Positions 4,107 through 47,384 are shown, counted from the first letter of the stretch. The stretch is DNA of 64,000 nucleotides from Candidatus Woesebacteria bacterium (GCA_963716475.1 OY970314.1:74479-138478), one strand, 5' to 3'. The notes: a model not told the origin generated them from the sequence alone. Numbers and translations are program-made.

Positions 4107-4121
4107 CCGAAGAGTAAATAA

Positions 4122-10270: not shown

Positions 10271-10324
10271 AAGATATTCCCCTGGTTTGCTTCCGGGATA
10301 GTTGGATGTTATTATACCTATAAT

Positions 10325-15350: not shown

Positions 15351-15394
15351 TTGACAAACGTTCCCATGGTTGGTAACAATTAATTAGTAGCAAA
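15351..15394 (+). promoter_or_regulatory. sigma-70-like promoter upstream of giant gene 1, sharing a 15-mer with the gene 2 promoter
   Basis: TTGACA (15351) -N17- TAACAAT. ATGGTTGGTAACAAT is identical to 20453-20467. Confidence 0.4.
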
Positions 15395-18300
15395 ATGCCC
15401 ACAAAAGAAAAAATCTCCGCGGTAAAAAAAGTTTTGGAAGGAATTTCTGTCTCTTCTGTTGCATCTGAGGCCGGGGTTGCCAGAAAAACAATATATTCGT
15501 GGCTAAATATTTATAAAGCCGCTGCCAAAAGAAACAAAAAAACCTGTCTCTTGCCCAAATATGTGGCGGGAAGGGCTCACCCGAGGGAATATACGCACAC
15601 TTTGGAGCAGAAGACAGTAAGACTAATAAAGAAGGACCCGACACTTAGCGTTTCCAAAATGGCTGAAAGATTAAACGCAGGACATCATGCGGTTTACAAT
15701 CTTTTAAAGGCCTTAAAATTGAACACAGAAGATTCCAGGCTTGCATACTCCCGGATTTACTCATATCCCGGTATTTTTGACCCCCAAATTAAGGAATCGG
15801 TTGCAAGGAAAATTGTGAATTCGGAAGGAAAAGTCACGGATATTTCCAGGGAGCTACGGGTTTCCAGAAAGACTATATATAAATGGTTAAAAGAATACAA
15901 AGAGAAGGGAACAGTAAGAAATAACTATTTGAAAGGTTTTGAACACCCCAGATCACTTGGCCCGGAGGCGGAAGCGTCAGTGCTCTCGCAAGTCGTAAAG
16001 GCGCCGGAACTTTCAATTCATGCCTTGGCCACCGGTTTAAACTTTTCCAATCATGCGGTTTTTAATATTCTAAAAAGAAATTTCCTGACTCAAAGAAATG
16101 CCAGGATTATCTATTCTCAGGCTCAGGCTATCCGGGTTTCCGAAAAACCGGAAGCTATCGGTTTTATCGACAGGATAAAGAGTGTTTTTGAAACCTTTAC
16201 TCCGAATCTGGCCCCGGCTCCGCCTCCGGGGGGAAAATCCAAGTTTAGCCCTCTTCTTAAAATCTCCCTGGCTTCGATAATCGTTTTACCGCTTTTCACT
16301 CTTGCCCTGGTCTATTGGGTGAATCTATTAAGGTCCGGTGCAGCAGGGAACGTCGTCGGGCTTATCTTTGCCACAATATCCCTGATTATGGGTACTTTCT
16401 TCTTTTTATATTCACTCAAATATTATTTTACGGTCGCTTTGGTTCTTTCCCGCACCCAGCAGGAAGGGTCAAAAAGCCGTACTTCTATCGGTCTTGAACC
16501 CAATCTCGATCACGTAATTCTCACAAAGAAGCCATACATATCAGTTCATATACCTTTTTATAATGAGAAGAATGTAGTAGAGCGTGCAATTGAGGCTTCA
16601 ACCAATTTCGATTACCCGGAGTATGAAGTGATTCTTTGTGATGATTCAACCGATGAAACAACAACCATTATCAGGGATTATCAAAAGAAATATCTTTCAA
16701 AAGGGGAGAGCTTAAAAATAACTACCAATAGTCAAGACGGCTGGGAGCTGTCCCATGTGGATGTCAGACCGGGAGTAACCCTTAAACATCTTCACAGGAT
16801 CTCAAGAGAAGGTTACAAGGGGGGAGCACTCAGGCTAGCTCTTACTCAGACTGATCCCAGGGCTGAGTTTGTCTCTGTCTTTGATGCCGATTTTGTTCCA
16901 TATCCTGATTCTCTAAACCTTTTCCTCAAGTACTTTAAAGCTGAGAATAACATGAGTGAGGATTATACAGTAAGTAAGGTTGCTGCGGTTCAAGGTTACC
17001 AGTGGCATGTACTTAATAAATCCGAAAACTGGATAACCAGGGGTGTCAGAAGTGAATATGCAGGTAGCTACGTTATCGAAAGAGCGGGAACTGAAATCTA
17101 TGGGGGACTAAAACAAATCTCGGGGTCAGTATATATGATTAGACGTAAGCCCCTAGAAGAAGTAGGCTGGGCCACATCAATCACTGAGGACTTTGAACTT
17201 ACTCTCAAACTATATAATGCCGGCTACAAGGTGGTCTATACACCTTATATACAAGCTCCTGCAGAATGTGTATCAACCCTAAGACGCTTAGTGAGGCAAC
17301 GTATGCGTTGGGCCGAGGGTCATTCTTTCAATGTCAAAAAGATGTTTGCAAAGCTTATGTTCTCTCCGAAACTTTCTTCTGCCGAGAAGTTTGAAACGGT
17401 TTACCTTGCCCCTTACTACCTTCAGGCATTCTTTTTTGTAGTCGGAACTCTTTCCTGGTTTATCAGTGAGACTCTCCTGCCTGCCCGTCTGCCTTTCTGG
17501 ACAGAACTTTGGGGATGGAGTCTGGTCTTAACCAACATGGTAGCCCTTCCCCTTATGAACACCGTCGGAATGTTCCTGGAAGAAAGTGAACAGAAGGACT
17601 ATACAGGAATACTATCATTCGTCGCTCTTTCATACCTTGTGGTCCCGTTTCAGGCCTACGCGGCTGTCAAGGGCTTTCTGGAGACCTCAGAAGGGCCTTG
17701 GTTTAGAACTCCCAAGACCGGTAGAATCACAGACGTCTTTGCCAGGGGTAAATTCTACAGGCTTATCAGACAGATCCTTCCCAGAAGAGCCACCTCATTC
17801 CAAAGTACTTATTCATACAACTACATTACCTTAACGACAGCAAATAATAGATTTAGCAATTTTAAAATAAAAAGGTCGGGAAATAAATATATTTCAAAAG
17901 CATTACTTACGGGATTAACGATTATTATTTTACTTTTGAATCAACTTAGCTTCTTTGCCCCGGGAGTACTTGCGGCAAGTCCTAACCCTACTATTGAACA
18001 ACAAATAAATTTTATGGATAAATTATACTCTACAACCAGCACGAGTGCCGCACCGGGCGATAATTCTTTAGGAATGTTTACTTGGAATGACTCAAAATAT
18101 AATAACGCAACTGTTAATATGGACTATGATGCTGGGAAAAGCGGAAACTTGTCTTATGGCCTAACTTCTGTGGGACTTTCTTTGGTTAATGGAACAACAT
18201 ACACACCGGCAATAAGGTATCAATGTCTTGCAGTGAGTGGAATAGCAACCGAATACGCTATTCCAGGGTTATATACGTCAGGTGGAGTTTTAGTTCAATT

Positions 18301-19282
18301 CTCAGAAGTTTCAATTTCTCTCGGCGAGGTTCCGGGTGGGAAATGTCCTACTTCAGCGAACAGAACACCTGCATATATTGCTGCGGCACGCCTAAGAATT
18401 GTACAGACAAATGCTACCGGAATTACAAATACCAGAAACATGATTGAACTGGGAGATGGTGAAACCATTTCAACAGGTACAACAGCAACTCAGCTAACTT
18501 ACCCCAAATATTGGCTTTATACATCGGGAAATTATGACGGGACTGTTACTACGACTTTTGAAGCGACTGTTTGGAGGGCCGGTGGCAGTTCATACACCGC
18601 CTACGTATGTCTGTATTCTACAGCAGGCAGTGAGATCGGGTGTGTGAGTACCACAAGTACATCCCCGGCTTACCCGACCGCAGTAAGCGTAACCCTGTCA
18701 AACGGAACCGAATATGAAGTAAGAGTCAAAGCCAGCGCAGCCGCAAAAACTGTATATATTGCAAACGCTAAAGTTATAGTTGATCAAGCAGCGGCAGGGG
18801 GAATTACCAAATTGGAAACAGTGCAACATTATAATAACACTCTGGCAACGGAATCAACATCTTCCTATGTTTCTAAGCAATTTTTAACCGAGTTTGTTTT
18901 GGATAACTGGTATGGCGGAACGTTTGCTGCCTATTTTGAGTCGGATATAAAGACTAATAACAGTTCAAATGCCTATTATGCTCGTTTGTACGATATTTAT
19001 AATGCTACCCCTATGGGAGAGATTACAGGTAATGATACTTCCTATGTTAGAAAAACCAGTTCGGATATATGGAGTTCTCTTGCTGCGGGTGGCAATACAA
19101 TGATAGACGTTCAACTGAAAAATAATTCGACCAGCACCACCTCATCATCAAATTCTTGGTTAATCATTAAAGTAACAAATTTACAAGTGCCCGAGAAGCT
19201 TATTTTTGCCCTGCCGTTGATATCCTTAATCCCGATTATAATTAAAAAAAGGAAGGAGATTCTATTAAATAGAAATGGTTGA
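15395..19282 (+). CDS. giant multi-domain surface protein 1: IS630-like HTH repeats + processive GT2 (cellulose-synthase-like) + Ser/Thr-rich ectodomain + VPE-type exosortase sorting tail
   Basis: 1295 aa. Two HTH pairs (…ARKTIYSWLNIYK…, …SRKTIYKWLKEYKEKG…). GT2 motifs VHIPFYNEKNVVERAIE, ILCDDSTDETT, FDADFVP and QRMRWAEGH (QxxRW), plus gating-loop-like WFRTPKTGRITD. Multiple TM helices. C-terminal tail VPEKLIFALPLISLIPIIIKKRKE. Confidence 0.85.
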   Translation: MPTKEKISAVKKVLEGISVSSVASEAGVARKTIYSWLNIYKAAAKRNKKTCLLPKYVAGRAHPREYTHTLEQKTVRLIKKDPTLSVSKMAERLNAGHHAVYNLLKALKLNTEDSRLAYSRIYSYPGIFDPQIKESVARKIVNSEGKVTDISRELRVSRKTIYKWLKEYKEKGTVRNNYLKGFEHPRSLGPEAEASVLSQVVKAPELSIHALATGLNFSNHAVFNILKRNFLTQRNARIIYSQAQAIRVSEKPEAIGFIDRIKSVFETFTPNLAPAPPPGGKSKFSPLLKISLASIIVLPLFTLALVYWVNLLRSGAAGNVVGLIFATISLIMGTFFFLYSLKYYFTVALVLSRTQQEGSKSRTSIGLEPNLDHVILTKKPYISVHIPFYNEKNVVERAIEASTNFDYPEYEVILCDDSTDETTTIIRDYQKKYLSKGESLKITTNSQDGWELSHVDVRPGVTLKHLHRISREGYKGGALRLALTQTDPRAEFVSVFDADFVPYPDSLNLFLKYFKAENNMSEDYTVSKVAAVQGYQWHVLNKSENWITRGVRSEYAGSYVIERAGTEIYGGLKQISGSVYMIRRKPLEEVGWATSITEDFELTLKLYNAGYKVVYTPYIQAPAECVSTLRRLVRQRMRWAEGHSFNVKKMFAKLMFSPKLSSAEKFETVYLAPYYLQAFFFVVGTLSWFISETLLPARLPFWTELWGWSLVLTNMVALPLMNTVGMFLEESEQKDYTGILSFVALSYLVVPFQAYAAVKGFLETSEGPWFRTPKTGRITDVFARGKFYRLIRQILPRRATSFQSTYSYNYITLTTANNRFSNFKIKRSGNKYISKALLTGLTIIILLLNQLSFFAPGVLAASPNPTIEQQINFMDKLYSTTSTSAAPGDNSLGMFTWNDSKYNNATVNMDYDAGKSGNLSYGLTSVGLSLVNGTTYTPAIRYQCLAVSGIATEYAIPGLYTSGGVLVQFSEVSISLGEVPGGKCPTSANRTPAYIAAARLRIVQTNATGITNTRNMIELGDGETISTGTTATQLTYPKYWLYTSGNYDGTVTTTFEATVWRAGGSSYTAYVCLYSTAGSEIGCVSTTSTSPAYPTAVSVTLSNGTEYEVRVKASAAAKTVYIANAKVIVDQAAAGGITKLETVQHYNNTLATESTSSYVSKQFLTEFVLDNWYGGTFAAYFESDIKTNNSSNAYYARLYDIYNATPMGEITGNDTSYVRKTSSDIWSSLAAGGNTMIDVQLKNNSTSTTSSSNSWLIIKVTNLQVPEKLIFALPLISLIPIIIKKRKEILLNRNG

Positions 19283-19838
19283 AAAAAGGAAAATTATAAA
19301 TATTTTGCTTATAGCCAGCCTAATTTTGGCTTTACTGCCTTTTTATGTGAGCTTTCAGGATTTACTTACAAATATAGTTATGAAGGTAAATTTGTATAAA
19401 GCTTTACAAAACACAATTGTGCCATATGAAATGAAAGTGGTAGGCGGAATTATAAACCTGTTACGTTTTCCGATTAGCGCAGGCAGTAGTTATTTTTCAT
19501 GGAATATAGCCAATGGTAAAAAAGAAGCAGTCTATTTGGCCTGGAACTGTATTGGTTGGCAGACTATGATACTGTTTTTGGTGACATTAGTTACAGGTTT
19601 TTCAAAAAGACACCTCTTAAGTTCAAAAATTGAAGCTATTTTAATAGGAGCGCTAGGGACATATATAATAAACATTGTAAGGATTACTGTTGTTATTTTG
19701 ATCTATTTCTGGTTTGGCCGGGGGTTTGGAATAATATTCCACGATTACTTCTCATCTCTAATTACAATATTCTGGTTAATAGGGTATTGGCTGTTTGTTT
19801 ATAAACATACCCTAATAGAAAAATCCGTCGAAGAGTAG
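19275..19838 (+). CDS. mini exosortase/archaeosortase-like polytopic membrane protein (cassette 1)
   Basis: 187 aa, about 5 TM. Conserved WNCIGWQ (Cys), NIVRITV (Arg) and IFHDYF (His) shared with the two paralogues downstream of the other giant genes. Its ATG overlaps the giant gene's end by 8 nt. Confidence 0.7.
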   Translation: MVEKRKIINILLIASLILALLPFYVSFQDLLTNIVMKVNLYKALQNTIVPYEMKVVGGIINLLRFPISAGSSYFSWNIANGKKEAVYLAWNCIGWQTMILFLVTLVTGFSKRHLLSSKIEAILIGALGTYIINIVRITVVILIYFWFGRGFGIIFHDYFSSLITIFWLIGYWLFVYKHTLIEKSVEE

Positions 19839-20437: not shown

Positions 20438-20473
20438 TTGACAGGTGTTAGGATGGTTGGTAACAATGAATAT
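20438..20473 (+). promoter_or_regulatory. sigma-70-like promoter upstream of giant gene 2
   Basis: TTGACA (20438) -N17- TAACAAT, then ATG 20474. The ORF track's TTG start at 20438 is this -35 box. Confidence 0.4.
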
Positions 20474-23400
20474 ATGCCCTTTTCCGAAGCTAAAAGAGAA
20501 AAGATCGTTTTATCCGTACTAAAGGATAATATTGCGGTTTCGGAAGTCTCCAGAAACTACTCTGTTGCCCGAAAAACTATTTACTCTTGGATAAAGAGGT
20601 ATAAAAAGGGAAGTCTTGCTCCACTATATACAAAGGGCAGGAAACACCCGGCGGCCGTATACCCGAAAGCCTATTCTTATATAAGTAGATGGGCTGTAGG
20701 GCACCCCAAGTGGGGATGCCGCACTTTGAGTAAAAGATTAAATGAAAAAGGAATCAGCTTGAGCTACGTTCAGGTTAACAGATTGTTGAACACAATCGGA
20801 GCGGAGACTTATGACAGAAGGTTGAATTATGCCAGAAACTTTGCCGGTCCGGGGAGAACCAGGGAGGATGTCAGGCTTGAAATTGTCAAAAAGGCCGTTA
20901 CCGGGAAAATTTCCATTACAACTCTTTCCGAAAACTACAAAGTTGCCCGTAAGACCATATATAAATGGATAGCGAAATACCGGGCCATTGGTAACATTAA
21001 AGATTCGTACGTCGTTGGTGAGGCTCATCCCAAGGCAATCTACCCGAAAATTACGCAGCAAGTACTCGACTTGGTCGTTACAAACCCCGGTTATTCGGTA
21101 CGCACTCTGGCTAAATCATTTCCGGCATCCTCTTGGACCATCTGGAGTATTTTAAATAGAAATAATCTGAATACATATAATTTAAGGCTCGAATATTCCA
21201 GGAATATATCTGAGGCTGCCGAAGAGAAAGTCTCGACAACGGGAGTTTCCGAAAGGATAAGATCTGTTTTTGAAAGCTTTACTCCAAATCTGGCTCCGGC
21301 CCCGCCTCCGGGGAAACGTAAAATCTTCAACTTCTTCATTATTTCAGTCTTCCTCTTATCAATATCCTTAGCAATTTTCTATTGGGGATCCGTAATTGTT
21401 CACGCTCCGAATATTGCCGGGTCCATAGGCATGATTTTTGCAGGCGTCTCACTGTCACTCGGAATGTTTTTCTTCCTTTATTCTCTTAAATACTATATTT
21501 CTACAGCGATAGTGCTTTCATATTCACAGAAAGAGGGCTTAGATGCCTCGAGAGTAAGCGCTACCGGCTTAAACTCAGACCTCAGTAACATTCATCTTGA
21601 ACGGCATCCTTATGTCTCGGTTCATCTGGCTCTCTATAACGAGAAGAATGTGGTGGAAAGACTGATGAAAGCAGCTACTTCTTTCGATTACGACAATTAT
21701 GAAGTAATCATCGCGGATGACTCAACTGATGAAACCACCGACAAAATCAGGGAGTTTCTGAAAACATTCCTTCCTAAAGGTGAATCGCTTCGGCAAACCA
21801 AAGGGGACGGGTGGGCAATGACAGAAGTTGACATAAGGAGCGGGGTTGTCTTTAAACATGTCCATAGAACCACAAGGATGGGTTATAAAGGGGGAGCGCT
21901 GAAGCTTGCCCTTTCTCTTACCGACCCGAAAGCTGAATTTGTTTCTGTCTTTGATGCCGATTTTGTGCCTTACCCAGATTCCCTGATGCTATTTCTTAAA
22001 TACTTCAAACTACAGAATAATGGATCAGAAGACTACAAAACAAGTAATACTGCATCAGTTCAGGGCTATCAGTGGCACGTACTTAATAAATCAGAAAACT
22101 GGATTACTAGGGGAGTCAGAAGTGAGTATGCAGGTAGCTACGTAATAGAAAGAGCCGGAACCGAAATCTACAAAGGCCTAAAGCAAATCTCGGGATCAGT
22201 TTACATGATCAGGCGCGATGTTTTGGAAGGAATAGGTTGGGGTACTTCTATCACTGAGGACTTTGAGCTTACCCTGAAACTCTACGAAAAAGGCTACAAA
22301 GTGGTTTATACGCCGTATATTCAGGCTCCGGCTGAATGCGTATCGACCCTAAGAAGACTTGTCAGACAACGTATGCGTTGGGCGGAAGGACATTCTTTCA
22401 ATGTCAAAAAGATGTTCGCAAAGCTTATGTTCTCTCCAAAACTTTCTTCCGCCGAGAAGTTTGAAACGGTTTATCTTGCCCCTTACTATCTACAGGCATT
22501 ATTCTTCCTCATCGGAACTCTCTCCTGGTTCATTTCGGAAACCATTTTACCCGCCCGCCTTCCTTTCTGGACAGAGCTTTGGGGATGGAGTTTGGTTCTG
22601 ACCAATATGATTTCACTGCCGCTTCTAAACACAGTCGGACTTTTCTTAGAGGAATCGGACAGAAAGGATTACTCGGGTATTCCATCTTTTATAGCTCTTT
22701 CATATATAGTTGTTCCGTTTCAGGCCTATGCGGCTGTAAAAGGCTTTCTGGAGAAGGAGGAAGGACCATGGTTTAGAACTCCGAAAACCGGCCGCATTAC
22801 GGATGTTTTCAAAAGAGGTAAGTTCTACAAATTTATTTCCGGGATCTTGCCGGGGAAGGCTGCCGGTTCTGCCACGAGTTATGATCTAAGTCCTTATCTT
22901 GCCCTGACCTCAGCCAATAATAGATTCAGCTCGTTCTCCATTCAAACAAGAAAAGGCAGAAGGTGGGTGGGAAAACTAATGCTAACCTCAATGCTTATTA
23001 TTTCCAATCTTCTTCTTTCTTTTTCTCCTTATATTGAATCAAGGGACGGCAACAGCCAACCTCCTCCGGGAACAGGTATTCTTATGGATGGCAGTACAAA
23101 AGGATCGGGAGGCAAGGTCAATTTAACTCCTGAGCAGCAGCAGTCTTTGGACAAATCGATTAAAGCGAATAACCAAAAAACAAGCTTTAAACTGGTTAGC
23201 GATGTCTCGGCAGCAGAAATATCCGGAGGCAGTGAGGTGAACACCTCCTTTGATGTTAAAAAGAAAGACCTTGAACTTAGCGGGGGAAATACCACCTTTA
23301 CAACTGATGAAAATCCCCAATTTACCTTAAAGCAGAACGACGGTTTTTGGGAATTTATCAAGAATATTTTCATTAAAGAAAAACCCTTGAAAGATCAGGT

Positions 23401-31612: not shown

Positions 31613-31624
31613 TACAATGACATA

Positions 31625-33550: not shown

Positions 33551-33554
33551 GAAA

Positions 33555-34127
33555 ATGAATCAAAAAGCGCTTTTTAAACAAATACTGGCAACCCTTGTAA
33601 TTATATTGGCAGTTTTACCTGTGATTGTGACTTTTTCGGCAGTTTTGACTTCATTTTTCGAAAAAATTAAGCTTTATGTGTGGCTTCAGGATCTGGCTGT
33701 TCCTTTTGAAAGCAGACTGGTTGCGGTTCTAATCCAACTCTTTGGAATCAAAGGAATTATAACCCCCGGCAGCAGTTTTGCCATGGTTTTGCGGACATCC
33801 TCGGGGACTTTTACCCCGGTTGCATTGGAATGGAACTGTTTGGGCTGGCAAAGCCTGATTCTATTGGGTCTTACCCTAATAACAGGCCTCAGGGGAGCTT
33901 ACACGGGTTTAAGTAAAGCCCAGGTTGTTCTTTTCGGAATACTCGGAACTTTTTTATCAAATCTATTCAGGATGGCTTTTATTGTCATTCTGGCTTTTTA
34001 TTGGAATTCATTTGCAGCTATGATTATCCATGATTATTTTGCCAGTTTTGTCGCTATCATCTGGATGTTATTTTTCTGGTGGTTCTCCTACAGGTATATT
34101 TTGGAGGAAAAACCTGCGGGAAACTAA
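33555..34127 (+). CDS. mini exosortase/archaeosortase-like polytopic membrane protein (cassette 2)
   Basis: 190 aa. WNCLGWQ, NLFRMAF and IIHDYF motifs. Paralogue of 19275-19838 and 41283-41888. Confidence 0.7.
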   Translation: MNQKALFKQILATLVIILAVLPVIVTFSAVLTSFFEKIKLYVWLQDLAVPFESRLVAVLIQLFGIKGIITPGSSFAMVLRTSSGTFTPVALEWNCLGWQSLILLGLTLITGLRGAYTGLSKAQVVLFGILGTFLSNLFRMAFIVILAFYWNSFAAMIIHDYFASFVAIIWMLFFWWFSYRYILEEKPAGN

Positions 34128-34435
34128 ACCAATTTTTGCAATTTGAAATCGGGGAAGAGACGCTTTTTAATCAGGATGTCGCTTTCCTCGCCTATTTTAA
34201 TCGCTTCCAGTAAATTCTTCACCCCAGCCAAATTGATGCCCTTATTTTGCGTTAGGTAGCGTACAAATTGGAGTTTATTGATATCCTCAATGGAGAATAG
34301 TCTTCTTTTGGACTCGGATCGGTAGGGAGTAATGAGCCCGAGACTTTCGTAAAGCATAATTGTCCGTGGATGAACTTTCAAAAGTCTCGCAGCTATGGAT
34401 ATAGGCAGAATTGGACTCTCACTAAGCTCAGTCAT
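34124..34435 (-). CDS. MerR-family (HspR-like) transcriptional regulator
   Basis: 103 aa. MerR HTH (…ISIAARLLKVHPRTIMLYESLGLITPYRSESKRRLFSIEDINKLQFVRYL…). Confidence 0.75.
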   Translation of the reverse strand: MTELSESPILPISIAARLLKVHPRTIMLYESLGLITPYRSESKRRLFSIEDINKLQFVRYLTQNKGINLAGVKNLLEAIKIGEESDILIKKRLFPDFKLQKLV

Positions 34436-35012
34436 ATTAATATGATAATAATTAAGTATATTAACCTGAAGATAATACTGTCAAGAGGAAAAAGAAATAA
34501 AATCTATTGTCGATTTTTTATTATAGCCAATACGTTCGATAATTTGATAGGATTAGGGTTCTAATAAAGTATTTACTCAATCGTGAAAAGCTATCAAAGA
34601 AAATAGCAACAACCCTTATAGAACATAATAATACCTATATATATGTATCCTGATCAATATTTTTCAATAATTACCATAAACATATAGGAGAATAACAGAT
34701 GCCGGACGGGCAGAAAGGTTAACATTTGAGGCTGATTTCGGAGTAATAAAATGACTCATATAGCCAGTTCTCTTATAACCAATCGTTATATTTCGAGATA
34801 TTAGTTTAGAAATATCTATATCCTCTAGTAACATAGCTATATTTGAATTGGAAAATATGAGATTTAAACCGTTATTATCAACAGTATTTTAACCCATAGC
34901 CTCTTAAATGAGGATACTATTGACCATTGACAGATGTTACCCACAAGGTGTTAACATAATATATTAGCATCGTTTTCACGGGATTTAGAAACTAATGTGT
35001 TAACACCCTGCC

Positions 35013-38000
35013 ATGACACCTAAGTTATCAAAAGAGGGCCGTTTAAAGCTCATTGAACGCGTTGAAAAAGGCGAATCTGTCGCCAAGCTTTGCGCTGAAG
35101 CAGGAATTTCCCGGGTTCTTTTCTATAGATGGTATAAAAAGTATAAAAAGGGAGGTTTAATTGGCCTTAAACCTGGAGAAGCAGGCAGGCCGCAAACGTT
35201 TCACGCGCCTGAAAAGGGCAGGGTATACACAATTCTTTCACCAAAGGCCAGGAGTTTGATGGTCAAGGAAGTAGTAGAGCAGAATCAGGACGCAACAGAA
35301 GTCGCCGGACGCTATAACGTAAGCCGCGTCACACTATATAAATGGATAGACAGATATAAGGCTGATTTGGCAAAAGGTGTGGAACCGGATATGACCTCAA
35401 GAAAACCGTATGTGGAAAGGTATTTCAGGCAGGTTCCGGAGAAACACGAGCAGGCGGTTTTACAAATAGTAGAACAGCACCCTGAATGGGGTATTAGGAA
35501 AATTGTAGCCAATTTGCCGCAAGTTGCCGGAATCCCCATTATTGGACACCACGGTGTCCAAAACATACTTAACAGGCATAATCTGTCTACTTATGAGGTG
35601 CGCCTTGCCTACGCCAGATCCCGTGTTACTCCTATTACCCAGGGTATTGGTGGGGTACTGGAAAAAGTTACGGAGTTTTTCCAAATTGCTCCCGAAAAAA
35701 GGAAATCCTTTATCAAAAACTTCACCCGCATAAGTTTTGGGCTTTTTTCGCTGGTTGTAGTTCTCGGAGTTGTCAGTTACATTGCACGTTCCTTCTCGCA
35801 GGAGGCAGGAGCTTCACCACTGGGCTTAGGGTTTGCTTTTATAGCCCTTCTAATGGGCACAATATTCCTGTTCTATTCGTTTAAATACTATTTCAGCATT
35901 GCCATGGTGCTTTCATTTTCCCAGAATGAAAGTGGAAGTATTAGAAAGAGGGGGATTGGACTTACTCCAGACCTTTCGCATATAAAGCTTCTGAAAAGAC
36001 CGTATGTTTCGGTGCACATACCTTTTTATAACGAAAAGTATGTAGTTGAGCGTGCCATGGAGGCAGCATCGGGTTTTGATTATCCGGAGTATGAAGTGAT
36101 TCTTTGTGATGATTCTACTGATGAAACAACCAAAATAATCAGTAATTACCTGCATGCTAATGGAAAGAGCATTCAGAAGAAATCTGGAAACGGTTGGGAG
36201 CTTCAATGGACCGAAATAAAACCCGGAGTTACTTTTAAGCATCTTCACAGAACCAGCCGTGGCGGTTACAAAGGAGGAGCATTAAACCTGGCACTAAAAC
36301 TTACCGATCCCAGAACAGAATATGTATCAATTTTTGATGCGGACTTCGTGCCTTACCCGGATACATTGGAACTGTTCCTTAAGTATTTTCAGGTTGAAGG
36401 CAATAGGCCGGAAATCGCCGCGGTTCAGGGATATCAGTGGCACGTACTCAATAAATCCGAAAACTGGATTACCAGGGGAGTCAGAAGCGAATATGCGGGT
36501 TCCTATGTCATAGAAAGGGCAGGAACTGAGATCTACGGTGGTTTAAAGCAGATCTCCGGTTCGGTTTATATGATTAAGAAAGATGTCTTGCAGCAAATCG
36601 ACTGGGGGACTTCTATTACCGAGGATTTTGAACTAACCCTTCGGCTCTACGCTCAGGGCTACAAAGTTCTTTACACTCCCTATATACAGGCTCCGGCGGA
36701 GTGTGTTTCCACAATTAGGCGCTTGGTGCGTCAAAGAATGCGCTGGGCTGAGGGACACTCTGCCAATGTCAGAAAGATGTTCTTGAGGCTTATGAGAAGT
36801 CCCAAGCTTAATGCTACAGAAAAATTTGAATTTGTATATCTTTCACCCTACTACCTCCAGGCATTTTTCTTTTTGGTTGGGACTGTTTGCTGGTTTCTTT
36901 CTGAGGCCGTTTTTAAGGCAAGACTTCCTTTTTGGACTGAGCTTTGGGGTTGGAGTTTGGTATTAACCAACATGATTTCTCTCCCGCTTTTAAACGCGGT
37001 TGGAATGTTTCTCGAGGAAAGTGGGGAAAGGGATTACCTGGGCTTGGCATCATTTGCGGCTTTAAGCTATATCCTGGTGCCTTTCCAGGCATACGCTTCC
37101 GTTAAAGGATTTTTGGAGGATAAAGAAGGCCCCTGGTTTAGAACCCCAAAGACAGGCAGGATCACAGATATATTCAAAAGAGGTAAGTTTTACAGGTTTA
37201 TTTCCGGAATTTTGCCGGGGAAAGCCTCCGAGCCGGCTTCCGCTACCGGAAAACTTCTGCCGGGAGAAGCCCATGACATTGAGGCCAATTATTATTTGAA
37301 CTTAAACTCTGCCAATAATACCTTCAGCAACTTTAAAATTAAATCCAAAAAGGCTTATTGGATTGGGAATGCCGTAATCGGTATTACTGTTGCACTCAGC
37401 GGCTTACTTGTTTATTCCGGTTCGTTGATAAGCAAAGGAACTCTAATGGATTTACCGATTTCAACACGTGTTATTTCCGAAAGCCGTCCCAAGACGTTTC
37501 TTTCCAGACTGGAAATGTTTAAAGTCAAGGAGGTAATGGCCAATACCCTGCCACTACGAAAATCACTTCTGGCTCACGGAGAAAAAACATTGCCCCAACT
37601 CCTGGGAATATGGCCGATATTTATTTTTGCGCTTTTTGTCGCCCTACTTATTATCCTATTTATTAAGAGACGAAGTTTATTCAAGAAGGTGGTTTCGGTT
37701 GGTTTAATTATCTCGCTTGTCGCAAGTTGGCTTTTGTCCGGCTGGCCGGCCATTTGGAATTACCCGAGAATCCCGCCAAAGATCCGGGAAGCAAAGGCTG
37801 CGTTTGACGAGAGAACGGAAACAAACGTACAAGGAGCAAGCCTGAGTAGTCCTTATCAGGCCACTCTTGCTGTTCCTACCGGTACAACTAACGGAGACAT
37901 AATGTTCACTTGGATCGGTTCATATAGTGCTACCGTAACGACCAATGCTGCCTGGACTTTGATTGGAAGCAATACTACTAACAGTGATAAATATTACCTG

Positions 38001-41000
38001 TATGCTCGGGTAGCCTCAAGCGAACCGGCGTCATATGTCTGGACATTTTCAGGGACTTCAACATATAAAGCTACTTGTACCACCTATATAGCCAGTAGTG
38101 ATTTTAGTGTGACTAATGTTTCTACTGATCTTACCGTCAGCAATACTCCTTATAGAACATCTAATGGGACAAATCGTGCGGCGTCTTTTAGTGTTCCCAA
38201 TGCGAATTCGCCGTTATTGTTTTTCGGAGGCGTGTATTCTACAAGTTCCAAGACTCAGACTCCTCCTACAAACCCGGGAACATTCGCTGAAGATTATGAC
38301 ACGGGAAGCACCACTCCGGACTTTTGGTTGGAAATTGCTTCATATATTTGGGCCGGCTCCGGAACTAGCGGAGATATAGATTCCACGATTTCTGCTACTT
38401 TGACTACCAAACACGCTTTTGCTGTGGCATTGAAACCGCCGGCTGCTACAGTAAGCACAGGTGGCGGCCAAAAAGCTGGAATGGCCATTTCCAGCACTGA
38501 CAATTATGTCGGAGGGGAATTTATTATAGAGGAAGGTAGTGGGGGATCACGTAATGTAACAGGTATTACCATTGCCGAACAGGGGACAGTGAATGCCCAG
38601 ACGAACTTGGATAATATTAAACTTTATTATAATTCGGATACGAGTGCCCCCTATGATTGTGCCAGCAAAGCCTATACAGACGGAGACCTGAACCAATTCG
38701 GTTCCACTGACACAGATGGCTTCAGTGCGGCAAACGGTACCTCTGCTTTTACCGGTTCAGTGGGTATCAGCACCACTTCAACGATGTGTGTTTATGTGGT
38801 TTTGGATATCGGTTCGGGTGCCGGGAATGGAGATACATTAGAAATCCAGATTACCAATCCTTCAACTGATGTAACAGTCAGCAGCGGTTCGGTTAAACCA
38901 ATTACTGCCGTGCTTATCTCCGGAATTACTACAATTATGAATCCGGGCGTGATAGGCACTTTAGGAAAGTCCGCGGACGGTTGGGGTGGCGTCATTCCTG
39001 TTTATATGGAATTGGTCGGTGTAGATCAGGCAAGCTATCCCTATGCCAGGGCACAGGTTGTTACCCCAGCCTCAGAAACGTATTACACCACGATGACTTG
39101 GGATAGCGGGGATAACCGCTACGAGGGAGCGATTTATATCGGTTCCTGGTATTGTAATGCGTGTGCTGATAATCATACCGGAAGCTTTGCAGTGACGGTA
39201 CAGCTGGATAATAACTCCGGTTTTCCTTCAATAGATTACTCGGATAGCGTCGGCAATTTTGCTACAACGGTTACCCGCAGGCGAAGCTCCATCGGAGGAA
39301 CGACCAACTATGCAAAATATGCTGCGGTTTGGAGTACCGACCATTGGAATGTTCAGGCTTATGATTTTGATCTTTATACGGATTCGGGAACTATTACAAA
39401 TGCCGTTATCGGTATGGCTTTTCACCCCACGACGGCGGACATTTCCATTACCCAGGTCAGATTAAGTGATGGAGCGTGGATAACTACTCAATCTGCCGTC
39501 GACGGCACCGGTAACGGCTGGTGGTGGGACAGTTCGACCCATTCTCTGTATGTAAGAGTAGCTTCTCTGACGACCACTGCCCAAAATCTTGATTTTGAAT
39601 TTACTTCTTCGACTGACCTTTGGGCAACGCGTTTTGACAATGTCCAGACTACAGATATGGGGGAGCGTGACTTTTGGAACGGACTCTATATAAATAACCG
39701 TTATTACACAACCAGTATCTATGGATCTTCGCTTAACGTAGCCTTTAGCGGTACTGATCATGATAATGACGGAGTTCAGGCGGAATCAAGATCTCACAGG
39801 GATGGAACTTTAGAGAACGTAACAACCGACTGTATGGAAAGACTAGCGGTACACGTAGGACCTGACGGAGGAGGTACCCCAAGTGTGGCGAGACAGGATA
39901 ACAGCGTTGATTATAGCTACGATGTTAAATGGAAAGCGAACGATTTTGCAAATTGGATACAAAGTGAAAACGATGACCAAATGGTACTCTATGAAACCTC
40001 CGACGATCAGGGAAGTTGTACCGGTGGCAACATTCAGGCTTGGGCTCAATACTGCGATAATCAGATCGCAGCTCAAAGAACTCAAACTTTTTATGCAGGG
40101 AAACCCTACCTTAAAAACTATTATAAATTTATAAACAATGATACTAGTAGTCATTATTATGATATGGTTTGGGGAAGGGAGCAGTGGCTTAATGATTCTG
40201 CCGCTTCCACCAATGACCGGGGGATGACCTATGACAGCAATCCGAAGACAGTTGAGTGGTCCGGAGTTGACGATGAAAATCCGGATCAACCAACTTCTGC
40301 TCACCCATGGTTTGCCGCTTATGATATTACAGGTACCAACTTAATGGACGGAGTTTGTTATAAGTCCAACGATATTGCGACTAATAATTATTTTCTGTCA
40401 TACGCACCCCTTCAATCAGGATCCACCGCAGCCGAATGGCCGATTGATCATGGCCAGACAGGTACAGATGCTGCCGATACTTTCTTCAATAAATCTTTTG
40501 GTGTCGTTGGCGCAGGAAGTTCTGTAAACTTTACTTTTTGGCAGTTTAACTATTACGGAAGCTCTTTTGCCGATCTTAAATCAACAATTGATACAAATTG
40601 CACGGCGTTAAACGCACCCACATATAACCAATCCGCCTTCCGTTGGTTTAGTAATGATAATTCGGTATCAGTAGGTTCCCCAATAGTAAGTCAGGATACG
40701 GCGATGAGTAGTGAAACACCGCCTCAGGGGACACCTTTCCGTATGCGTGTCCTTCTACATGTGGATGGTAGCGATTTGGCCTCAAGCGGTCAGAATTTCA
40801 AGCTCCAGATTGCCTCGAAAGTAGGAGCGTCTTGTGATACTGATATGGATACAACCGACGAGTCGTACTCCGATCTGGTGACTACAACCGGAGCTATCCG
40901 TTATTATGACAACACTTCAGCCACGGATAATACAGCACTGACCGCGGATGTGACAAATGACCCCAGCCATAGTGGTCATACTAAAGTAACTCAAACCTAC

Positions 41001-41273
41001 AAAGATTTGGATACGAGCGATAGCAATATTAATTTCACTAATTCGGAAGGGGCGATACCTGTCGGTCAGGACGGAGAATGGGATTTTACCATCGTTGACA
41101 ATTCGGCCACGGAGGGAACGGATTATTGTCTTAGAATTGTTAAAGCTGACGATACAGTACTTGATACCTATTCCGTGGTGCCTGAATTTACTACGGTTCC
41201 GGAAAACCCGCTTCTCCTTTTTGGTCTGTATCCCCTATTTGCGGGATTTTTGAAAAAGCTGAGAAGGAAATAA
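35013..41273 (+). CDS. giant multi-domain surface protein 3: IS630-like HTH repeats + GT2 + Ser/Thr/Asn-rich ectodomain + VPE-type sorting tail
   Basis: 2086 aa. HTH (…SRVLFYRWYKKYKKGGLIGLKPGEAGRPQTF…, …VSRVTLYKWIDRYK…). GT2 motifs VHIPFYNEKYVVERAME, ILCDDSTDETT, FDADFVP and QRMRWAEGH, plus WFRTPKTGRITD. Tail TVPENPLLLFGLYPLFAGFLKKLRRK. Confidence 0.85.
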   Translation: MTPKLSKEGRLKLIERVEKGESVAKLCAEAGISRVLFYRWYKKYKKGGLIGLKPGEAGRPQTFHAPEKGRVYTILSPKARSLMVKEVVEQNQDATEVAGRYNVSRVTLYKWIDRYKADLAKGVEPDMTSRKPYVERYFRQVPEKHEQAVLQIVEQHPEWGIRKIVANLPQVAGIPIIGHHGVQNILNRHNLSTYEVRLAYARSRVTPITQGIGGVLEKVTEFFQIAPEKRKSFIKNFTRISFGLFSLVVVLGVVSYIARSFSQEAGASPLGLGFAFIALLMGTIFLFYSFKYYFSIAMVLSFSQNESGSIRKRGIGLTPDLSHIKLLKRPYVSVHIPFYNEKYVVERAMEAASGFDYPEYEVILCDDSTDETTKIISNYLHANGKSIQKKSGNGWELQWTEIKPGVTFKHLHRTSRGGYKGGALNLALKLTDPRTEYVSIFDADFVPYPDTLELFLKYFQVEGNRPEIAAVQGYQWHVLNKSENWITRGVRSEYAGSYVIERAGTEIYGGLKQISGSVYMIKKDVLQQIDWGTSITEDFELTLRLYAQGYKVLYTPYIQAPAECVSTIRRLVRQRMRWAEGHSANVRKMFLRLMRSPKLNATEKFEFVYLSPYYLQAFFFLVGTVCWFLSEAVFKARLPFWTELWGWSLVLTNMISLPLLNAVGMFLEESGERDYLGLASFAALSYILVPFQAYASVKGFLEDKEGPWFRTPKTGRITDIFKRGKFYRFISGILPGKASEPASATGKLLPGEAHDIEANYYLNLNSANNTFSNFKIKSKKAYWIGNAVIGITVALSGLLVYSGSLISKGTLMDLPISTRVISESRPKTFLSRLEMFKVKEVMANTLPLRKSLLAHGEKTLPQLLGIWPIFIFALFVALLIILFIKRRSLFKKVVSVGLIISLVASWLLSGWPAIWNYPRIPPKIREAKAAFDERTETNVQGASLSSPYQATLAVPTGTTNGDIMFTWIGSYSATVTTNAAWTLIGSNTTNSDKYYLYARVASSEPASYVWTFSGTSTYKATCTTYIASSDFSVTNVSTDLTVSNTPYRTSNGTNRAASFSVPNANSPLLFFGGVYSTSSKTQTPPTNPGTFAEDYDTGSTTPDFWLEIASYIWAGSGTSGDIDSTISATLTTKHAFAVALKPPAATVSTGGGQKAGMAISSTDNYVGGEFIIEEGSGGSRNVTGITIAEQGTVNAQTNLDNIKLYYNSDTSAPYDCASKAYTDGDLNQFGSTDTDGFSAANGTSAFTGSVGISTTSTMCVYVVLDIGSGAGNGDTLEIQITNPSTDVTVSSGSVKPITAVLISGITTIMNPGVIGTLGKSADGWGGVIPVYMELVGVDQASYPYARAQVVTPASETYYTTMTWDSGDNRYEGAIYIGSWYCNACADNHTGSFAVTVQLDNNSGFPSIDYSDSVGNFATTVTRRRSSIGGTTNYAKYAAVWSTDHWNVQAYDFDLYTDSGTITNAVIGMAFHPTTADISITQVRLSDGAWITTQSAVDGTGNGWWWDSSTHSLYVRVASLTTTAQNLDFEFTSSTDLWATRFDNVQTTDMGERDFWNGLYINNRYYTTSIYGSSLNVAFSGTDHDNDGVQAESRSHRDGTLENVTTDCMERLAVHVGPDGGGTPSVARQDNSVDYSYDVKWKANDFANWIQSENDDQMVLYETSDDQGSCTGGNIQAWAQYCDNQIAAQRTQTFYAGKPYLKNYYKFINNDTSSHYYDMVWGREQWLNDSAASTNDRGMTYDSNPKTVEWSGVDDENPDQPTSAHPWFAAYDITGTNLMDGVCYKSNDIATNNYFLSYAPLQSGSTAAEWPIDHGQTGTDAADTFFNKSFGVVGAGSSVNFTFWQFNYYGSSFADLKSTIDTNCTALNAPTYNQSAFRWFSNDNSVSVGSPIVSQDTAMSSETPPQGTPFRMRVLLHVDGSDLASSGQNFKLQIASKVGASCDTDMDTTDESYSDLVTTTGAIRYYDNTSATDNTALTADVTNDPSHSGHTKVTQTYKDLDTSDSNINFTNSEGAIPVGQDGEWDFTIVDNSATEGTDYCLRIVKADDTVLDTYSVVPEFTTVPENPLLLFGLYPLFAGFLKKLRRK

Positions 41274-41282
41274 TCGTGAACC

Positions 41283-41888
41283 ATGCCTAAAAACACATTC
41301 AAGACAATTTTGGTTGTATTTTCAATTATCATAATGCTTTTACCCATTTTTGCGGCTCTGAATGGCTTTTTGACGGGGGTTTTAGATAACGCCGGCTGGT
41401 ATAGACCTGTCCAGCAGTTTATTGTTCCCTGGCAGGCGAGGATAGTAGCCGGGGTAATCCGCCCTTTCGGAATTAACTCCAAAGTAACTCCGGGAAGTTC
41501 GCTGTCAACTTTCTATATGATTAAAAAGGAAACTGCCATCCCTGTCGATTTGTCCTGGAACTGTTTGGGGTGGCAATCTATCTTGTTGCTAATAGTATCC
41601 CTGATAACAGGGTTAAGAGGGCCATTTACTCATCTTTCAAGGATAAAGTGCGTCCTGTTCGGTTTGGTGGGTACTCTGCTTATCAATATCTTAAGAATGA
41701 GTGTTATTGCCCTGGGAATCTATTATATTAATGCCCTGGCTGCACAAATTATTCATGATTACTTGGCAGCCTTTTTTACAATAATTTGGCTATTTATCTT
41801 CTGGTGGTTTTCATATAGATACATCCTGGAAGAAAAGGAAAGCCATGATACGGGGAATGATAATATGGAAGTTACACCGAAGGGTTGA
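41283..41888 (+). CDS. mini exosortase/archaeosortase-like polytopic membrane protein (cassette 3)
   Basis: 201 aa. WNCLGWQ, NILRMSV and IIHDYL motifs. Confidence 0.7.
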   Translation: MPKNTFKTILVVFSIIIMLLPIFAALNGFLTGVLDNAGWYRPVQQFIVPWQARIVAGVIRPFGINSKVTPGSSLSTFYMIKKETAIPVDLSWNCLGWQSILLLIVSLITGLRGPFTHLSRIKCVLFGLVGTLLINILRMSVIALGIYYINALAAQIIHDYLAAFFTIIWLFIFWWFSYRYILEEKESHDTGNDNMEVTPKG

Positions 41889-42988: not shown

Positions 42989-43117
42989 GACAGGTAGATT
43001 ATCAGAAATAGTATACTAGAAAAAGATTTAGGTACAATGGGACAAAAAAGAATCCATTGTGCGAAAACCCATTGACGTATATTGGGGTGTTTGGGTACAC
43101 TTGGGGCTGAATTAAAA

Positions 43118-47379: not shown

Positions 47380-47384
47380 ATGGT

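What the first reader, a model, noticed from the sequence alone, without database searches (positions are those of the whole stretch)
15351..41888. Three tandem cassettes: giant HTH-GT2-ectodomain protein with exosortase-type C-terminal tail plus its own mini exosortase-like partner
Three consecutive same-strand units: 15395-19838, 20474-34127 and 35013-41888. Each encodes a very large protein (1295, about 3712 and 2086 aa) with the same unusual architecture. Cytoplasmic IS630-like HTH repeats are followed by 2 TM helices, then a processive GT2 synthase domain (QxxRW, FRTPKTG gating loop), more TM helices and a huge Ser/Thr-rich extracellular region. Each ends in VPE-hydrophobic helix-Lys/Arg. 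Each is followed within 2-12 nt by a 187-201-aa polytopic membrane protein carrying conserved Cys/Arg/His; in cassette 2 a DUF2723 glycosyltransferase sits in between. PEP-CTERM/exosortase systems are normally one exosortase serving many small substrates. Here there is a dedicated mini-sortase per substrate, and the substrate is itself fused to a polysaccharide synthase. I do not recognise this arrangement as a described system. It could be a self-contained module that makes a glycan, displays or anchors a giant glycoprotein and processes its C-terminus.
Basis: partly seen in the sequence, partly recalled or inferred. Interest (0 to 1): 0.95.

Follow-up and report, generated by a model that had tools for sequence, protein, structure and literature searches.

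The report
Glycan synthase–surface protein with private exosortase
Three neighbouring gene pairs in a candidate-phyla-radiation bacterium each encode a giant protein (sugar-polymer synthase fused to a surface domain) ending in a "cut here" tail, plus its own small membrane protease; the design recurs across bacteria and archaea and I found no paper on it.

Summary
The three giants (1295, 3712 and 2086 aa) share about 850 N-terminal residues: two transposase-type HTH domains, then a BcsA-like processive GT2 synthase. Their Ser/Thr-rich ectodomains are unrelated. Each ends in VPE, a hydrophobic helix and Lys/Arg.

The three small proteins (187-201 aa) all pass the NCBIfam exosortase/archaeosortase signature TIGR04178. 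They keep the Cys-x-Gly, Asn-x-x-Arg and His motifs. None reaches the cut-off of any named Xrt/Art subfamily, and the tails match no curated CTERM model.

The pairing recurs in about 50 Microgenomates loci, often as tandem cassettes. Of 102 long homologues, 80 carry a [VI]PE-helix-basic tail.

- In Nitrososphaerales archaea, synthase, ectodomain, VPEN tail and sortase form one polypeptide.
- Anaerolineales-type relatives replace the HTH with a receiver domain.
- A PF10131-like membrane protein and a MerR/HspR-like regulator are recurrent neighbours.

The closest described system is XrtG/Firmicu-CTERM with its two glycosyltransferases in Firmicutes, so dedicated sortases are not new. What is new is that the substrate is itself the synthase.

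Cleavage, the acceptor and the glycan product are all inferred, not shown.

The parts
13846..15228 (+). Conserved neighbour: 460-aa polytopic membrane protein, PF10131 (PTPS_related)-like. Probably a glycan-handling membrane enzyme.
   Evidence: Homologues lie on the same strand next to cassettes in 20 related loci. Six of 15 family members hit PF10131, best E 1.4e-8. It has at least 6 hydrophobic segments.
15351..15380 (+). Promoter-like TTGACA-18-AACAAT block. It is shared with 20438-20467, upstream of giant 2.
   Evidence: This is a consensus match and sequence conservation only.
15395..19282 (+). Giant 1 (1295 aa). 2x HTH, 2 TM helices, GT2 synthase (DDSTDE 416-421, FDADF 496-500, TED 596-601, QRMRW 635-639, WFRTPKTG 769-776), TM helix at about 830-852, ectodomain at about 862-1264, then the tail.
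19187..19279 (+). Sorting-signal tail of giant 1: VPE, hydrophobic helix, KKRK.
19275..19838 (+). Mini exosortase/archaeosortase-family protein 1 (187 aa). Cys92, Arg136, His156.
   Evidence: TIGR04178 scores 38.3 bits against a cut-off of 23. Motifs.
20474..31612 (+). Giant 2 (3712 aa). Same N-terminal module. The ectodomain carries Laminin_G_3 (aa 2488-2647), His/Thr-rich repeats and BNR-like repeats.
31520..31609 (+). Sorting-signal tail of giant 2: VPEYLLLFLPLAPLLPFLSRVKKKR...
31625..33550 (+). DUF2723/TMEM260-like (PMT-type, GT-C) membrane glycosyltransferase with a C-terminal TPR. Candidate O-glycosylase of the ectodomain.
   Evidence: PF11028 scores 92.3 bits against a cut-off of 24.2, plus PMT_2 and TPR. 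TPR proteins of 970-990 aa sit in the same place in L018 and L030.
33555..34127 (+). Mini exosortase/archaeosortase-family protein 2 (190 aa). Cys95, Arg139, His159.
   Evidence: TIGR04178 scores 32.2 bits. AF2 model pLDDT is 87. Motifs.
34124..34435 (-). Divergent MerR/HspR-like transcription regulator (103 aa) between cassettes 2 and 3.
   Evidence: MerR_1 scores 53 bits against a cut-off of 21.6. HspR scores 76.6 bits, below its cut-off of 105. Close homologues lie in 7 related loci. MerR genes are also called in L001 and L003.
35013..41273 (+). Giant 3 (2086 aa). Same N-terminal module, with two extra TM helices before the ectodomain.
41196..41270 (+). Sorting-signal tail of giant 3: VPENPLLLFGLYPLFAGFLKKLRRK.
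   Evidence: The same tail type occurs in L036 and L046.
41283..41888 (+). Mini exosortase/archaeosortase-family protein 3 (201 aa). Cys94, Arg138, His158.
   Evidence: TIGR04178 scores 31.6 bits. Motifs.
43082..43813 (+). Context: small GT2 resembling polyprenyl-phosphate sugar synthases (PpgS/AglJ-like, below their cut-offs). A possible donor supplier for the GT-C enzymes.

Best explanation
Each cassette is a dedicated C-terminal protein-sorting pair built around a polysaccharide synthase.

The giant gene makes one polypeptide with these parts, in order:
- two cytoplasmic transposase-derived HTH domains, which are a swappable regulatory or input module;
- a BcsA-like membrane-embedded processive GT2 that polymerises and exports a beta-glycan;
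- a signal-anchor helix;
- a variable Ser/Thr-rich extracytoplasmic domain, probably O-glycosylated by the neighbouring GT-C-type enzymes;
- a tripartite sorting signal: [VI]PE directly abutting a Pro-containing helix, then Lys/Arg.

The small gene makes a compact exosortase/archaeosortase-family cysteine enzyme. Its Cys-Arg-His triad lies in the outer leaflet, at the depth where the VPE motif sits.

The most likely mechanism has three steps. The enzyme attacks the tail at or just after VPE. It removes the C-terminal helix through a thioacyl intermediate. It then hands the new C-terminus to an envelope acceptor, which would be a membrane lipid by analogy with ArtA. The glycosylated ectodomain would stay tethered beside the export pore of its own synthase.

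Shown here: family membership of the enzyme, the synthase fold and motifs, the conserved tail, conserved adjacency, and natural fusion of all parts.

Inferred: cleavage itself, the cleavage site, the acceptor, the glycan made, and the role of the HTH domains.
For: Enzyme:
- All three small proteins exceed the TIGR04178 cut-off.
- WNC-x-GWQ, N-x-x-R and H-D-Y are invariant in 56 homologues. They match the EpsH motifs of Haft 2006.
- Positive-inside counts place the N-terminus and loop 112-121 in the cytoplasm. Cys95 and His159 therefore lie at the outer helix ends.

Substrate tail:
- Only the 3 giants among the 50 window ORFs carry it.
- 80 of 102 homologues of at least 900 aa carry it, and most of the rest are truncated. 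The consensus is T-[VI]-P-E-N...A-P-F-I-P...KKRR.
- MAFFT independently aligns the P-E as nearly invariant.

Coupling:
- 52 of 62 sortase genes in about 50 loci have such a tail within 3.5 kb upstream. The gap is mostly -29 to +91 nt.
- HTH+GT2 lies upstream wherever enough DNA is present.
- Sortase clades track tail types.
- In the Nitrososphaerales-type proteins, GT2, ectodomain, DFPIEVPEN tail, linker and sortase form one polypeptide. This holds for 52 of the 119 best hits, with the PE-to-WNC distance fixed at 120-127 residues.
- In L057 the sortase sits directly upstream of a receiver-GT2-tail giant.

Synthase:
- The D, DxD, TED and QxxRW motifs are present.
- BcsA is the best PDB hit by sequence and by fold, E 8e-18, followed by hyaluronan, plant cellulose and chitin synthases.
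Against: - No experiment exists for any member.
- The tails match no curated CTERM model even at E<=10.
- The enzymes reach no named Xrt/Art subfamily cut-off.
- No solved homologue exists to check the active-site geometry.
- The ectodomain model has low confidence.
- After cleavage the ectodomain would still be held by the synthase at its N-terminal end, so the benefit of exchanging the C-terminal anchor is unclear.
- The C-terminal helix could correspond to BcsA TM8. Only one TM helix follows the gating loop.
- Some giants with tails lack an adjacent sortase (L045, L056).
- The tail/sortase correlation is confounded by genetic linkage.
Confidence: 0.66

Rival explanations
1. The enzyme cleaves the tail, but the outcome is release or regulation rather than anchoring. 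Hydrolysis frees the C-terminal end of the ectodomain. Alternatively, removing a TM8-like helix switches the synthase on or off. In this reading cleavage is a maturation or gating step for glycan secretion.
For: Only one TM helix follows the gating loop, whereas BcsA and HAS have a pair. The tail helix could therefore complete the channel (BcsA architecture is from my own knowledge). The N-terminal module is a swappable regulatory domain: HTH, receiver or none. Whether exosortases are transpeptidases at all is still open (Haft 2023 preprint).
Against: The only member of the family characterised biochemically, ArtA, couples cleavage to lipid attachment (as cited). The tail helix has only moderate or low AF2 confidence, and its packing could not be inspected.
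Confidence: 0.2
2. The small protein is a non-catalytic structural subunit of the synthase complex, and the VPE helix is just a membrane anchor like that of BcsB. No proteolysis occurs.
For: The giant is topologically analogous to a BcsA-BcsB fusion, with a large outside domain ending in one TM anchor (own knowledge). No cleavage has been shown.
Against: The Cys, Arg and His of the family triad are invariant in 56 sequences, and remain so in bacterial and archaeal relatives. A short signature motif abuts the helix and is conserved from CPR bacteria to Nitrososphaerales, while the ectodomains are unrelated. That pattern is typical of sorting signals (criteria).
Confidence: 0.08
3. The sortases mainly serve other substrates elsewhere in the genome (one-to-many), and their adjacency to the giants is incidental.
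For: L043 has three sortase-like genes after one giant. L045 and L056 have giants with no sortase next to them. The rest of the genome could not be scanned.
Against: Adjacency holds in about 50 loci with gene overlaps typical of translational coupling. No other tail-bearing ORF exists in the 64-kb window. Substrate and enzyme are physically fused in archaea.
Confidence: 0.04
4. The cassettes are remnants or cargo of IS630/IS481-type mobile elements, which would explain the HTH domains and the tandem copies.
For: The HTH domains score against IS630, IS481 and IS3 transposase models.
Against: Only the N-terminal DNA-binding part matches: profile positions 12-116 of 299, at 53 bits against a cut-off of 100. 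There is no DDE domain. No terminal inverted repeats were found. The copies are 49-58% identical old paralogues in a conserved chromosomal glycan locus.
Confidence: 0.02

Closest known systems
XrtG / Firmicu-CTERM system of Firmicutes (NCBIfam TIGR03110 XrtG, TIGR03111 XrtG-associated GT2; composition as listed in PMC12854382)
   Same: The host is a monoderm. The exosortase is compact (the XrtG profile is 187 positions; the proteins here are 187-201 aa). The cassette is small and dedicated: one CTERM target, the sortase and GT2-type glycosyltransferases side by side.
   Different: Here the target and the GT2 are one polypeptide, with HTH domains and a giant ectodomain. XrtG scores are 13-16 bits against a cut-off of 102.75, and TIGR03111 scores 24 bits against 364. 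No curated CTERM model in NCBIfam (the Firmicu-CTERM sorting domain is named in PMC12854382) matches the tails.
Archaeosortase A / PGF-CTERM (Haloferax volcanii S-layer glycoprotein)
   Same: Same enzyme superfamily and triad. The tripartite signal abuts the membrane helix. The substrate is a large, heavily glycosylated surface protein. Cleavage is coupled to lipid attachment.
   Different: ArtA is one enzyme for many substrates. Its substrates have signal peptides, not a synthase. The motif is PGF, not VPE. ArtC is the best specific model hit here, at only 15-31 bits against a cut-off of 100.
Exosortase A/B with PEP-CTERM in EPS loci of Gram-negative bacteria (Haft 2006, PMC1569441)
   Same: A Pro-Glu core motif followed by a helix and a basic cluster. 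The system is genomically linked to exopolysaccharide synthesis. The enzyme motifs Cys-x-Gly, Asn-x-x-Arg and His are present.
   Different: In that system the enzymes have at least 8 TM helices, there are many substrates per genome, and an outer membrane is required. Here the enzyme has 4-5 helices, the arrangement is close to one-to-one, and the hosts are monoderm CPR bacteria or archaea. TIGR02595 does not match the tails.
Bacterial cellulose synthase BcsA-BcsB (and the fused AcsAB form)
   Same: GT2 fold, catalytic motifs, a gating-loop-like FxTxK segment and a membrane channel. A large outside domain ends in a single TM anchor, as in BcsB (own knowledge).
   Different: There is no PilZ domain. 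The N-terminal module is HTH instead. The ectodomain is unrelated to BcsB. The anchor carries a sortase signal. CelA and PgaC equivalog cut-offs are far from met: 85-87 bits against 699 and 422.
Dedicated one-to-one C-terminal sorting pairs (for example JDVT-CTERM with its adjacent intramembrane protease; Haft 2023 preprint)
   Same: Target and sorting enzyme are products of consecutive genes, which is the stated criterion for dedicated systems.
   Different: The protease family is different (CPBP/Rce1-like there). No synthase is fused to the target.

Membership tests
Exosortase/archaeosortase family (TIGR04178 signature; EpsH family of Haft 2006) | HMM score at or above the curated cut-off | tested here: met
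   Scores are 38.3, 32.2 and 31.6 bits against a cut-off of 23, with E from 1e-9 to 1.5e-7. Pfam PF09721 itself is below its cut-off for the window proteins but is precomputed on many homologues.
Exosortase/archaeosortase family (TIGR04178 signature; EpsH family of Haft 2006) | Conserved Cys-x-Gly, Asn-x-x-Arg and His-x-x-x-Gly motifs (putative Cys-Arg-His triad) | tested here: met
   WNC-[LI]-G, N-x-x-R and H-D-Y are invariant in 11 and in 56 sequences. The motif definitions come from PMC1569441. The Gly after His is Ala or Ser here.
Exosortase/archaeosortase family (TIGR04178 signature; EpsH family of Haft 2006) | Triad located near the outer face of the membrane | tested here: inconclusive
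   This is inferred from AF2 helices, positive-inside counts and the cytoplasmic basic linker in natural fusions. No dedicated topology predictor or experiment was available.
Exosortase/archaeosortase family (TIGR04178 signature; EpsH family of Haft 2006) | Co-occurrence with a tripartite C-terminal sorting signal | tested here: met
Exosortase/archaeosortase family (TIGR04178 signature; EpsH family of Haft 2006) | Cysteine-dependent cleavage of the signal | not testable with these tools
   This needs biochemistry or proteomics.
Named subfamilies XrtG, XrtH, XrtS, XrtX, ArtC, ArtH, CrtC | Subfamily HMM at or above its cut-off | tested here: not met
   The best scores are ArtC at 31.2 bits against 100 and XrtG at 16.2 bits against 102.75. 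The others are at or below 16 bits.
   No family matched at E<=10 for any of the three tails.
   The median distance from PE to the protein end is 33 residues.
Processive membrane-embedded GT2 synthases (BcsA/HAS/CHS type) | D, DxD, TED and QxxRW motifs, and a GT-A domain flanked by TM helices with interface helices | tested here: met
   Motifs. AF2 core pLDDT is 85-97. The top Foldseek hits are BcsA (8e-18), HAS, CesA and chitin synthases.
Processive membrane-embedded GT2 synthases (BcsA/HAS/CHS type) | Equivalog-level identity to cellulose or PNAG synthase; the polymer made | tested here: not met
   CelA scores 85 bits against 699 and PgaC scores 87 bits against 422. The product cannot be determined from sequence.
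IS630/IS481 transposases | Full-length match including the DDE catalytic domain | tested here: not met
   Only the N-terminal HTH part matches. NF033545 scores 53 bits against 100 over profile positions 12-116 of 299. NF033577 scores 57-89 bits against 224.
DUF2723/TMEM260-like protein O-mannosyltransferase family (PF11028) | Pfam score above the gathering threshold | tested here: met
   The score is 92.3 bits against 24.2, plus PMT_2 at 38 bits.

The most novel reading that the evidence does not exclude
This is a self-contained machine found in both Bacteria and Archaea. A polysaccharide synthase carries its own surface domain. A private exosortase then joins the C-terminus of that domain covalently to the glycan chain emerging from the same polypeptide, or to a lipid beside it. 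The result would be a protein-polysaccharide fibre assembled in cis. The swappable N-terminal DNA-binding or receiver domain would couple fibre production to gene regulation. If correct, this would give the first defined acceptor and purpose for the long-noted exosortase-polysaccharide link.
Probability: 0.15. Interest if true: 0.92.

Novelty: new variant of a known kind. Interest (0 to 1): 0.8.

Why it matters
Exosortases were named for their unexplained association with exopolysaccharide loci. What they attach their substrates to is still unknown. Here the association is physical. The sorting signal sits on the synthase polypeptide itself, and in Nitrososphaerales-type archaeal proteins the sortase is fused to it too.

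This gives a minimal system of one or two genes in which to test cleavage, acceptor and glycan coupling by heterologous expression.

It also identifies a large family of variable giant surface proteins in Microgenomates, often several cassettes per genome. These organisms are thought to live attached to hosts, and their surface biology is essentially uncharacterised.

Finally, it shows a membrane glycan synthase whose cytoplasmic N-terminal module is a DNA-binding HTH pair in CPR bacteria, a receiver domain (sometimes with an RNAP alpha-CTD) in Anaerolineales-type relatives, and absent in archaea.

Tried and rejected
- Tails against NCBIfam CTERM models: no hits at E<=10.
- The afdb50 fold library was not available.
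- The window's own sortase was not on record in the contig index. The source organism is known only as a 982,852-bp contig in NCBI/ENA.
- Haft 2012 (PMC3256604) is not held in the library.
- Literature searches pairing exosortase or archaeosortase with Patescibacteria, CPR or Microgenomates returned nothing that held both kinds of term. A search with Nitrososphaera and Thaumarchaeota terms listed no paper describing such a system; two archaeal reviews mention both archaeosortase and these taxa.
- Rfam gathering scan: only two tRNAs, and no riboswitch before the giants.
- Intergenic repeats and terminators: nothing beyond chance, apart from the block shared upstream of giants 1 and 2.
- L027 looked like a substrate without GT2. 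It is a giant cut by the contig end and an N-run, and its first ORF begins with the conserved post-gating-loop segment.
- The mobile-element reading was rejected because there is no DDE domain and there are no element ends.
- The Mantel correlation of sortase against tail is real, but linkage alone would produce it. I do not use it as proof of specificity.
Full report
**1. Observation**

Small protein 1 overlaps giant 1 by 8 nt. The other junctions are 12, 4 and 9 nt, an arrangement typical of co-transcribed, translationally coupled genes.

The three giants share residues 1 to about 850 at 49-58% identity. After that they are unrelated. The three small proteins are 33-48% identical to each other. 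The cassettes are therefore old paralogues, not recent duplications.

The surrounding DNA is an ordinary bacterial chromosome: ArgRS, MreB, UppS and polyprenyl synthase upstream. Downstream lies a glycan-biosynthesis region with a PpgS-like GT2, a GT4, an epimerase, a methyltransferase and large PF10131-type membrane proteins. Homologues place the organism among the Patescibacteria/Microgenomates. The source is a 982,852-bp contig.

**2. The giants**

Pfam and NCBIfam find two HTH_28/HTH_32-type domains. These correspond to the N-terminal DNA-binding part of IS630/IS481 transposases. The scores are below those families' cut-offs and there is no catalytic domain.

A GT2 domain of the Glyco_trans_2_3 type follows. 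The motifs DDSTDE, FDADF, TED, Q(R)MRW and WFRTPKTG are present in all three giants and invariant in 59 aligned homologues.

BcsA is the best solved relative by sequence. An AlphaFold2 model of giant 1 residues 250-1295 gives pLDDT 85-97 for the synthase core. That core is closest in fold to BcsA (E 8e-18), then hyaluronan synthases, plant CesA and chitin synthases. The ectodomain is modelled poorly.

The helix order supports a specific topology. Two TM helices precede the GT-A domain. After it come an interface helix, two TM helices, an amphipathic helix and the gating-loop segment. One more TM helix follows, with five Lys/Arg before it and none after. The ectodomain is therefore outside, and the last helix returns to a cytoplasmic Lys/Arg cluster.

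The ectodomains are 23-25% Ser+Thr. Giant 2 contains a Laminin_G_3 domain.

**3. The small proteins**

All three exceed the curated cut-off of the exosortase/archaeosortase signature TIGR04178. No named subfamily (XrtG, XrtH, XrtS, XrtX, ArtC, ArtH) comes near its own cut-off.

WNC-x-GWQ, N-x-x-R and H-D-Y are invariant across 56 homologues. These are the Cys-x-Gly, Asn-x-x-Arg and His motifs that Haft defined for EpsH and proposed as a sortase-like triad (PMC1569441).

The AF2 model (pLDDT 87) has five long helices and a three-stranded sheet. Lys/Arg counts put the N-terminus and loop 112-121 in the cytoplasm. This places Cys95 and His159 at the outer ends of their helices. That conclusion is an inference, not a measurement.

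No solved structure resembles the model.

**4. The tail is a conserved signal, and the pairing is conserved**

A simple detector looks for PE, then 17 hydrophobic residues, then at least 2 Lys/Arg near the C-terminus. It marks only the three giants among the 50 window ORFs.

Among 102 homologues of the giant-1 N-terminal module that are at least 900 aa long, 80 carry the tail. Most of the rest are visibly truncated. The consensus is T-[VI]-P-E-N-x-[ILV]...A-P-F-I-P...K-K-R-R.

A scan of species-representative genomes returned 51 loci. Most are titled Woese-, Curtiss-, Gottesman-, Levy- or Chisholmbacteria. Of 62 sortase genes in these loci, 52 have such a tail within 3.5 kb upstream, mostly at -29 to +91 nt. 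Those without a tail lie mostly at contig starts. HTH+GT2 is found upstream wherever enough DNA is present, and tandem cassettes are common.

Sortase clades go with tail types. Linkage alone could produce this.

The pairing is not strictly one-to-one. L045 and L056 have tailed giants with no sortase next to them. L043 has three sortase-like genes in a row.

**5.

Natural fusions. A profile search of 1.84 billion representative proteins found 467 relatives of the sortase. Two of them are single polypeptides of GT2, ectodomain, FPIEVPEN, helix, basic linker and sortase. A follow-up search showed this is a family. Of the 119 best hits, 52 have this fused form. One is named by NCBI as Nitrososphaerales, and one sits on a 1.8-Mb contig. 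The PE-to-WNC distance is fixed at 120-127 residues. This is Rosetta-stone evidence that synthase, tail and sortase act together. It also fixes the sortase N-terminus in the cytoplasm.

A swappable N-terminal module. Relatives carry the same GT2 and the same [VI]VPE[NG] tail, but with an N-terminal receiver domain, sometimes with an RNA-polymerase alpha-CTD. NCBI names some of these as Anaerolineales. In one such locus a sortase of this family lies directly upstream of the giant, next to a two-component system. The N-terminal domain is therefore an exchangeable cytoplasmic input module, not transposition machinery.

Two recurrent neighbours. A 460-aa PF10131-like polytopic membrane protein (13846-15228) occurs in 20 related loci. 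A divergent MerR/HspR-like regulator (34124-34435, minus strand) occurs in 7.

**6. Mechanism**

I read each cassette as a dedicated sorting pair.

The synthase part polymerises and exports a beta-glycan. This rests on homology; the product is unknown.

The ectodomain is exported behind a signal-anchor helix. It is probably O-glycosylated by the DUF2723/TMEM260-like and PF10131-like enzymes, using polyprenyl-phosphate sugars. This rests on gene context only.

The exosortase-family enzyme recognises [VI]PE at the outer-leaflet boundary and removes the C-terminal helix. This rests on family membership, motif conservation, adjacency and fusion.

The fate of the new C-terminus is not known. It could be transferred to a lipid, as for ArtA. 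It could be transferred to the glycan. It could simply be hydrolysed. Because only one TM helix follows the gating loop, the tail helix may also serve as a TM8-like element of the channel. Cleavage would then regulate the synthase.

**7. Comparison with what is known**

The nearest described system is XrtG in Firmicutes. It combines a Firmicu-CTERM target, a compact exosortase and two glycosyltransferases in one small locus (PMC12854382; NCBIfam names). Dedicated one-to-one sorting pairs are an accepted category. So "a private mini-sortase" and "a sortase next to a GT2" are not new in themselves.

New features are these:
- the fusion of target and processive synthase;
- the HTH or receiver N-terminal modules;
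- the giant variable ectodomains in tandem cassettes;
- a tail class that no curated model recognises;
- the fully fused archaeal form.

No paper in the searchable library pairs exosortase or archaeosortase with CPR taxa. The Nitrososphaera/Thaumarchaeota search surfaced no description of such a system. Public annotations are only generic.

**8. Verdict**

This is a new variant of a known kind. It is of high interest because it ties exosortase action physically to a polysaccharide synthase and offers a one- or two-gene test system. Cleavage, the acceptor and the polymer are unproven.

Noticed in passing
window 34124-34435 (-): A MerR/HspR-like regulator (103 aa) lies divergently between cassettes 2 and 3. 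Close homologues sit beside cassettes in 7 related loci, and MerR genes are called in L001 and L003.
   Followed up: partly
window 13846-15228 (+): A 460-aa polytopic membrane protein with no Pfam hit of its own. Homologues flank cassettes in 20 loci, and 6 of 15 family members hit PF10131 (PTPS_related).
   Followed up: partly
window 15351-15394 and 20438-20473: A shared block of about 45 nt (TTGACA...GTT...ATGGTTGGTAACAAT) lies immediately upstream of giants 1 and 2. It could be a promoter or an operator. Giant 3 instead has a TGTTAACA palindrome pair at 34944-35010.
   Followed up: partly
P0312, P0354, P0392-P0440; L055, L058: Nitrososphaerales-type proteins fuse GT2, ectodomain, DFPIEVPEN tail and sortase in one chain of about 950 aa. 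The PE-to-WNC spacing is 120-127 residues.
   Followed up: yes
P0449-P0508; L056, L057: Anaerolineales-type relatives carry Response_reg, with or without an RNAP alpha-CTD, in place of the HTH. They sit next to GAF-histidine kinase/LuxR pairs and, in L056, a GGDEF gene. In L057 the sortase is upstream of the giant.
   Followed up: partly
P0254; P0284, P0305, P0307, P0311, P0333, P0349; L043 7437-10606: Some sortase-family members carry an extra C-terminal part. One is a SAM methyltransferase. Others of 430-470 aa have no Pfam hit. L043 has three sortase-like genes in a row.
   Followed up: no
L045 12947-18379: A second giant with a near-identical tail type is followed by a 440-aa membrane protein, not a sortase. 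It may share the sortase at 9899-10510.
   Followed up: partly
window 20474-31612 (giant 2 ectodomain): Contains long His/Thr-rich 'HTHT' stretches, a weak phage tail-collar hit, Laminin_G_3 and repeated BNR-like 'S-x-D-G-x-x-W' modules. The function is unknown.
   Followed up: no
window 43082-57009: A downstream envelope-glycan cluster: PpgS-like GT2, PF10131-like proteins of 446, 999 and 927 aa, epimerase, GT4, methyltransferase and a radical SAM protein.
   Followed up: partly
L008, L011, L012, L015, L017 and others: Many MAG records titled 'uncultured Gammaproteobacteria' carry these cassettes, which elsewhere occur in records titled Patescibacteria/Microgenomates. The record titles may be mislabelled; I did not check this.
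   Followed up: no
window 4035-4196: tRNA-Pro(CGG) and tRNA-Arg(CCT) genes in tandem.
   Followed up: no
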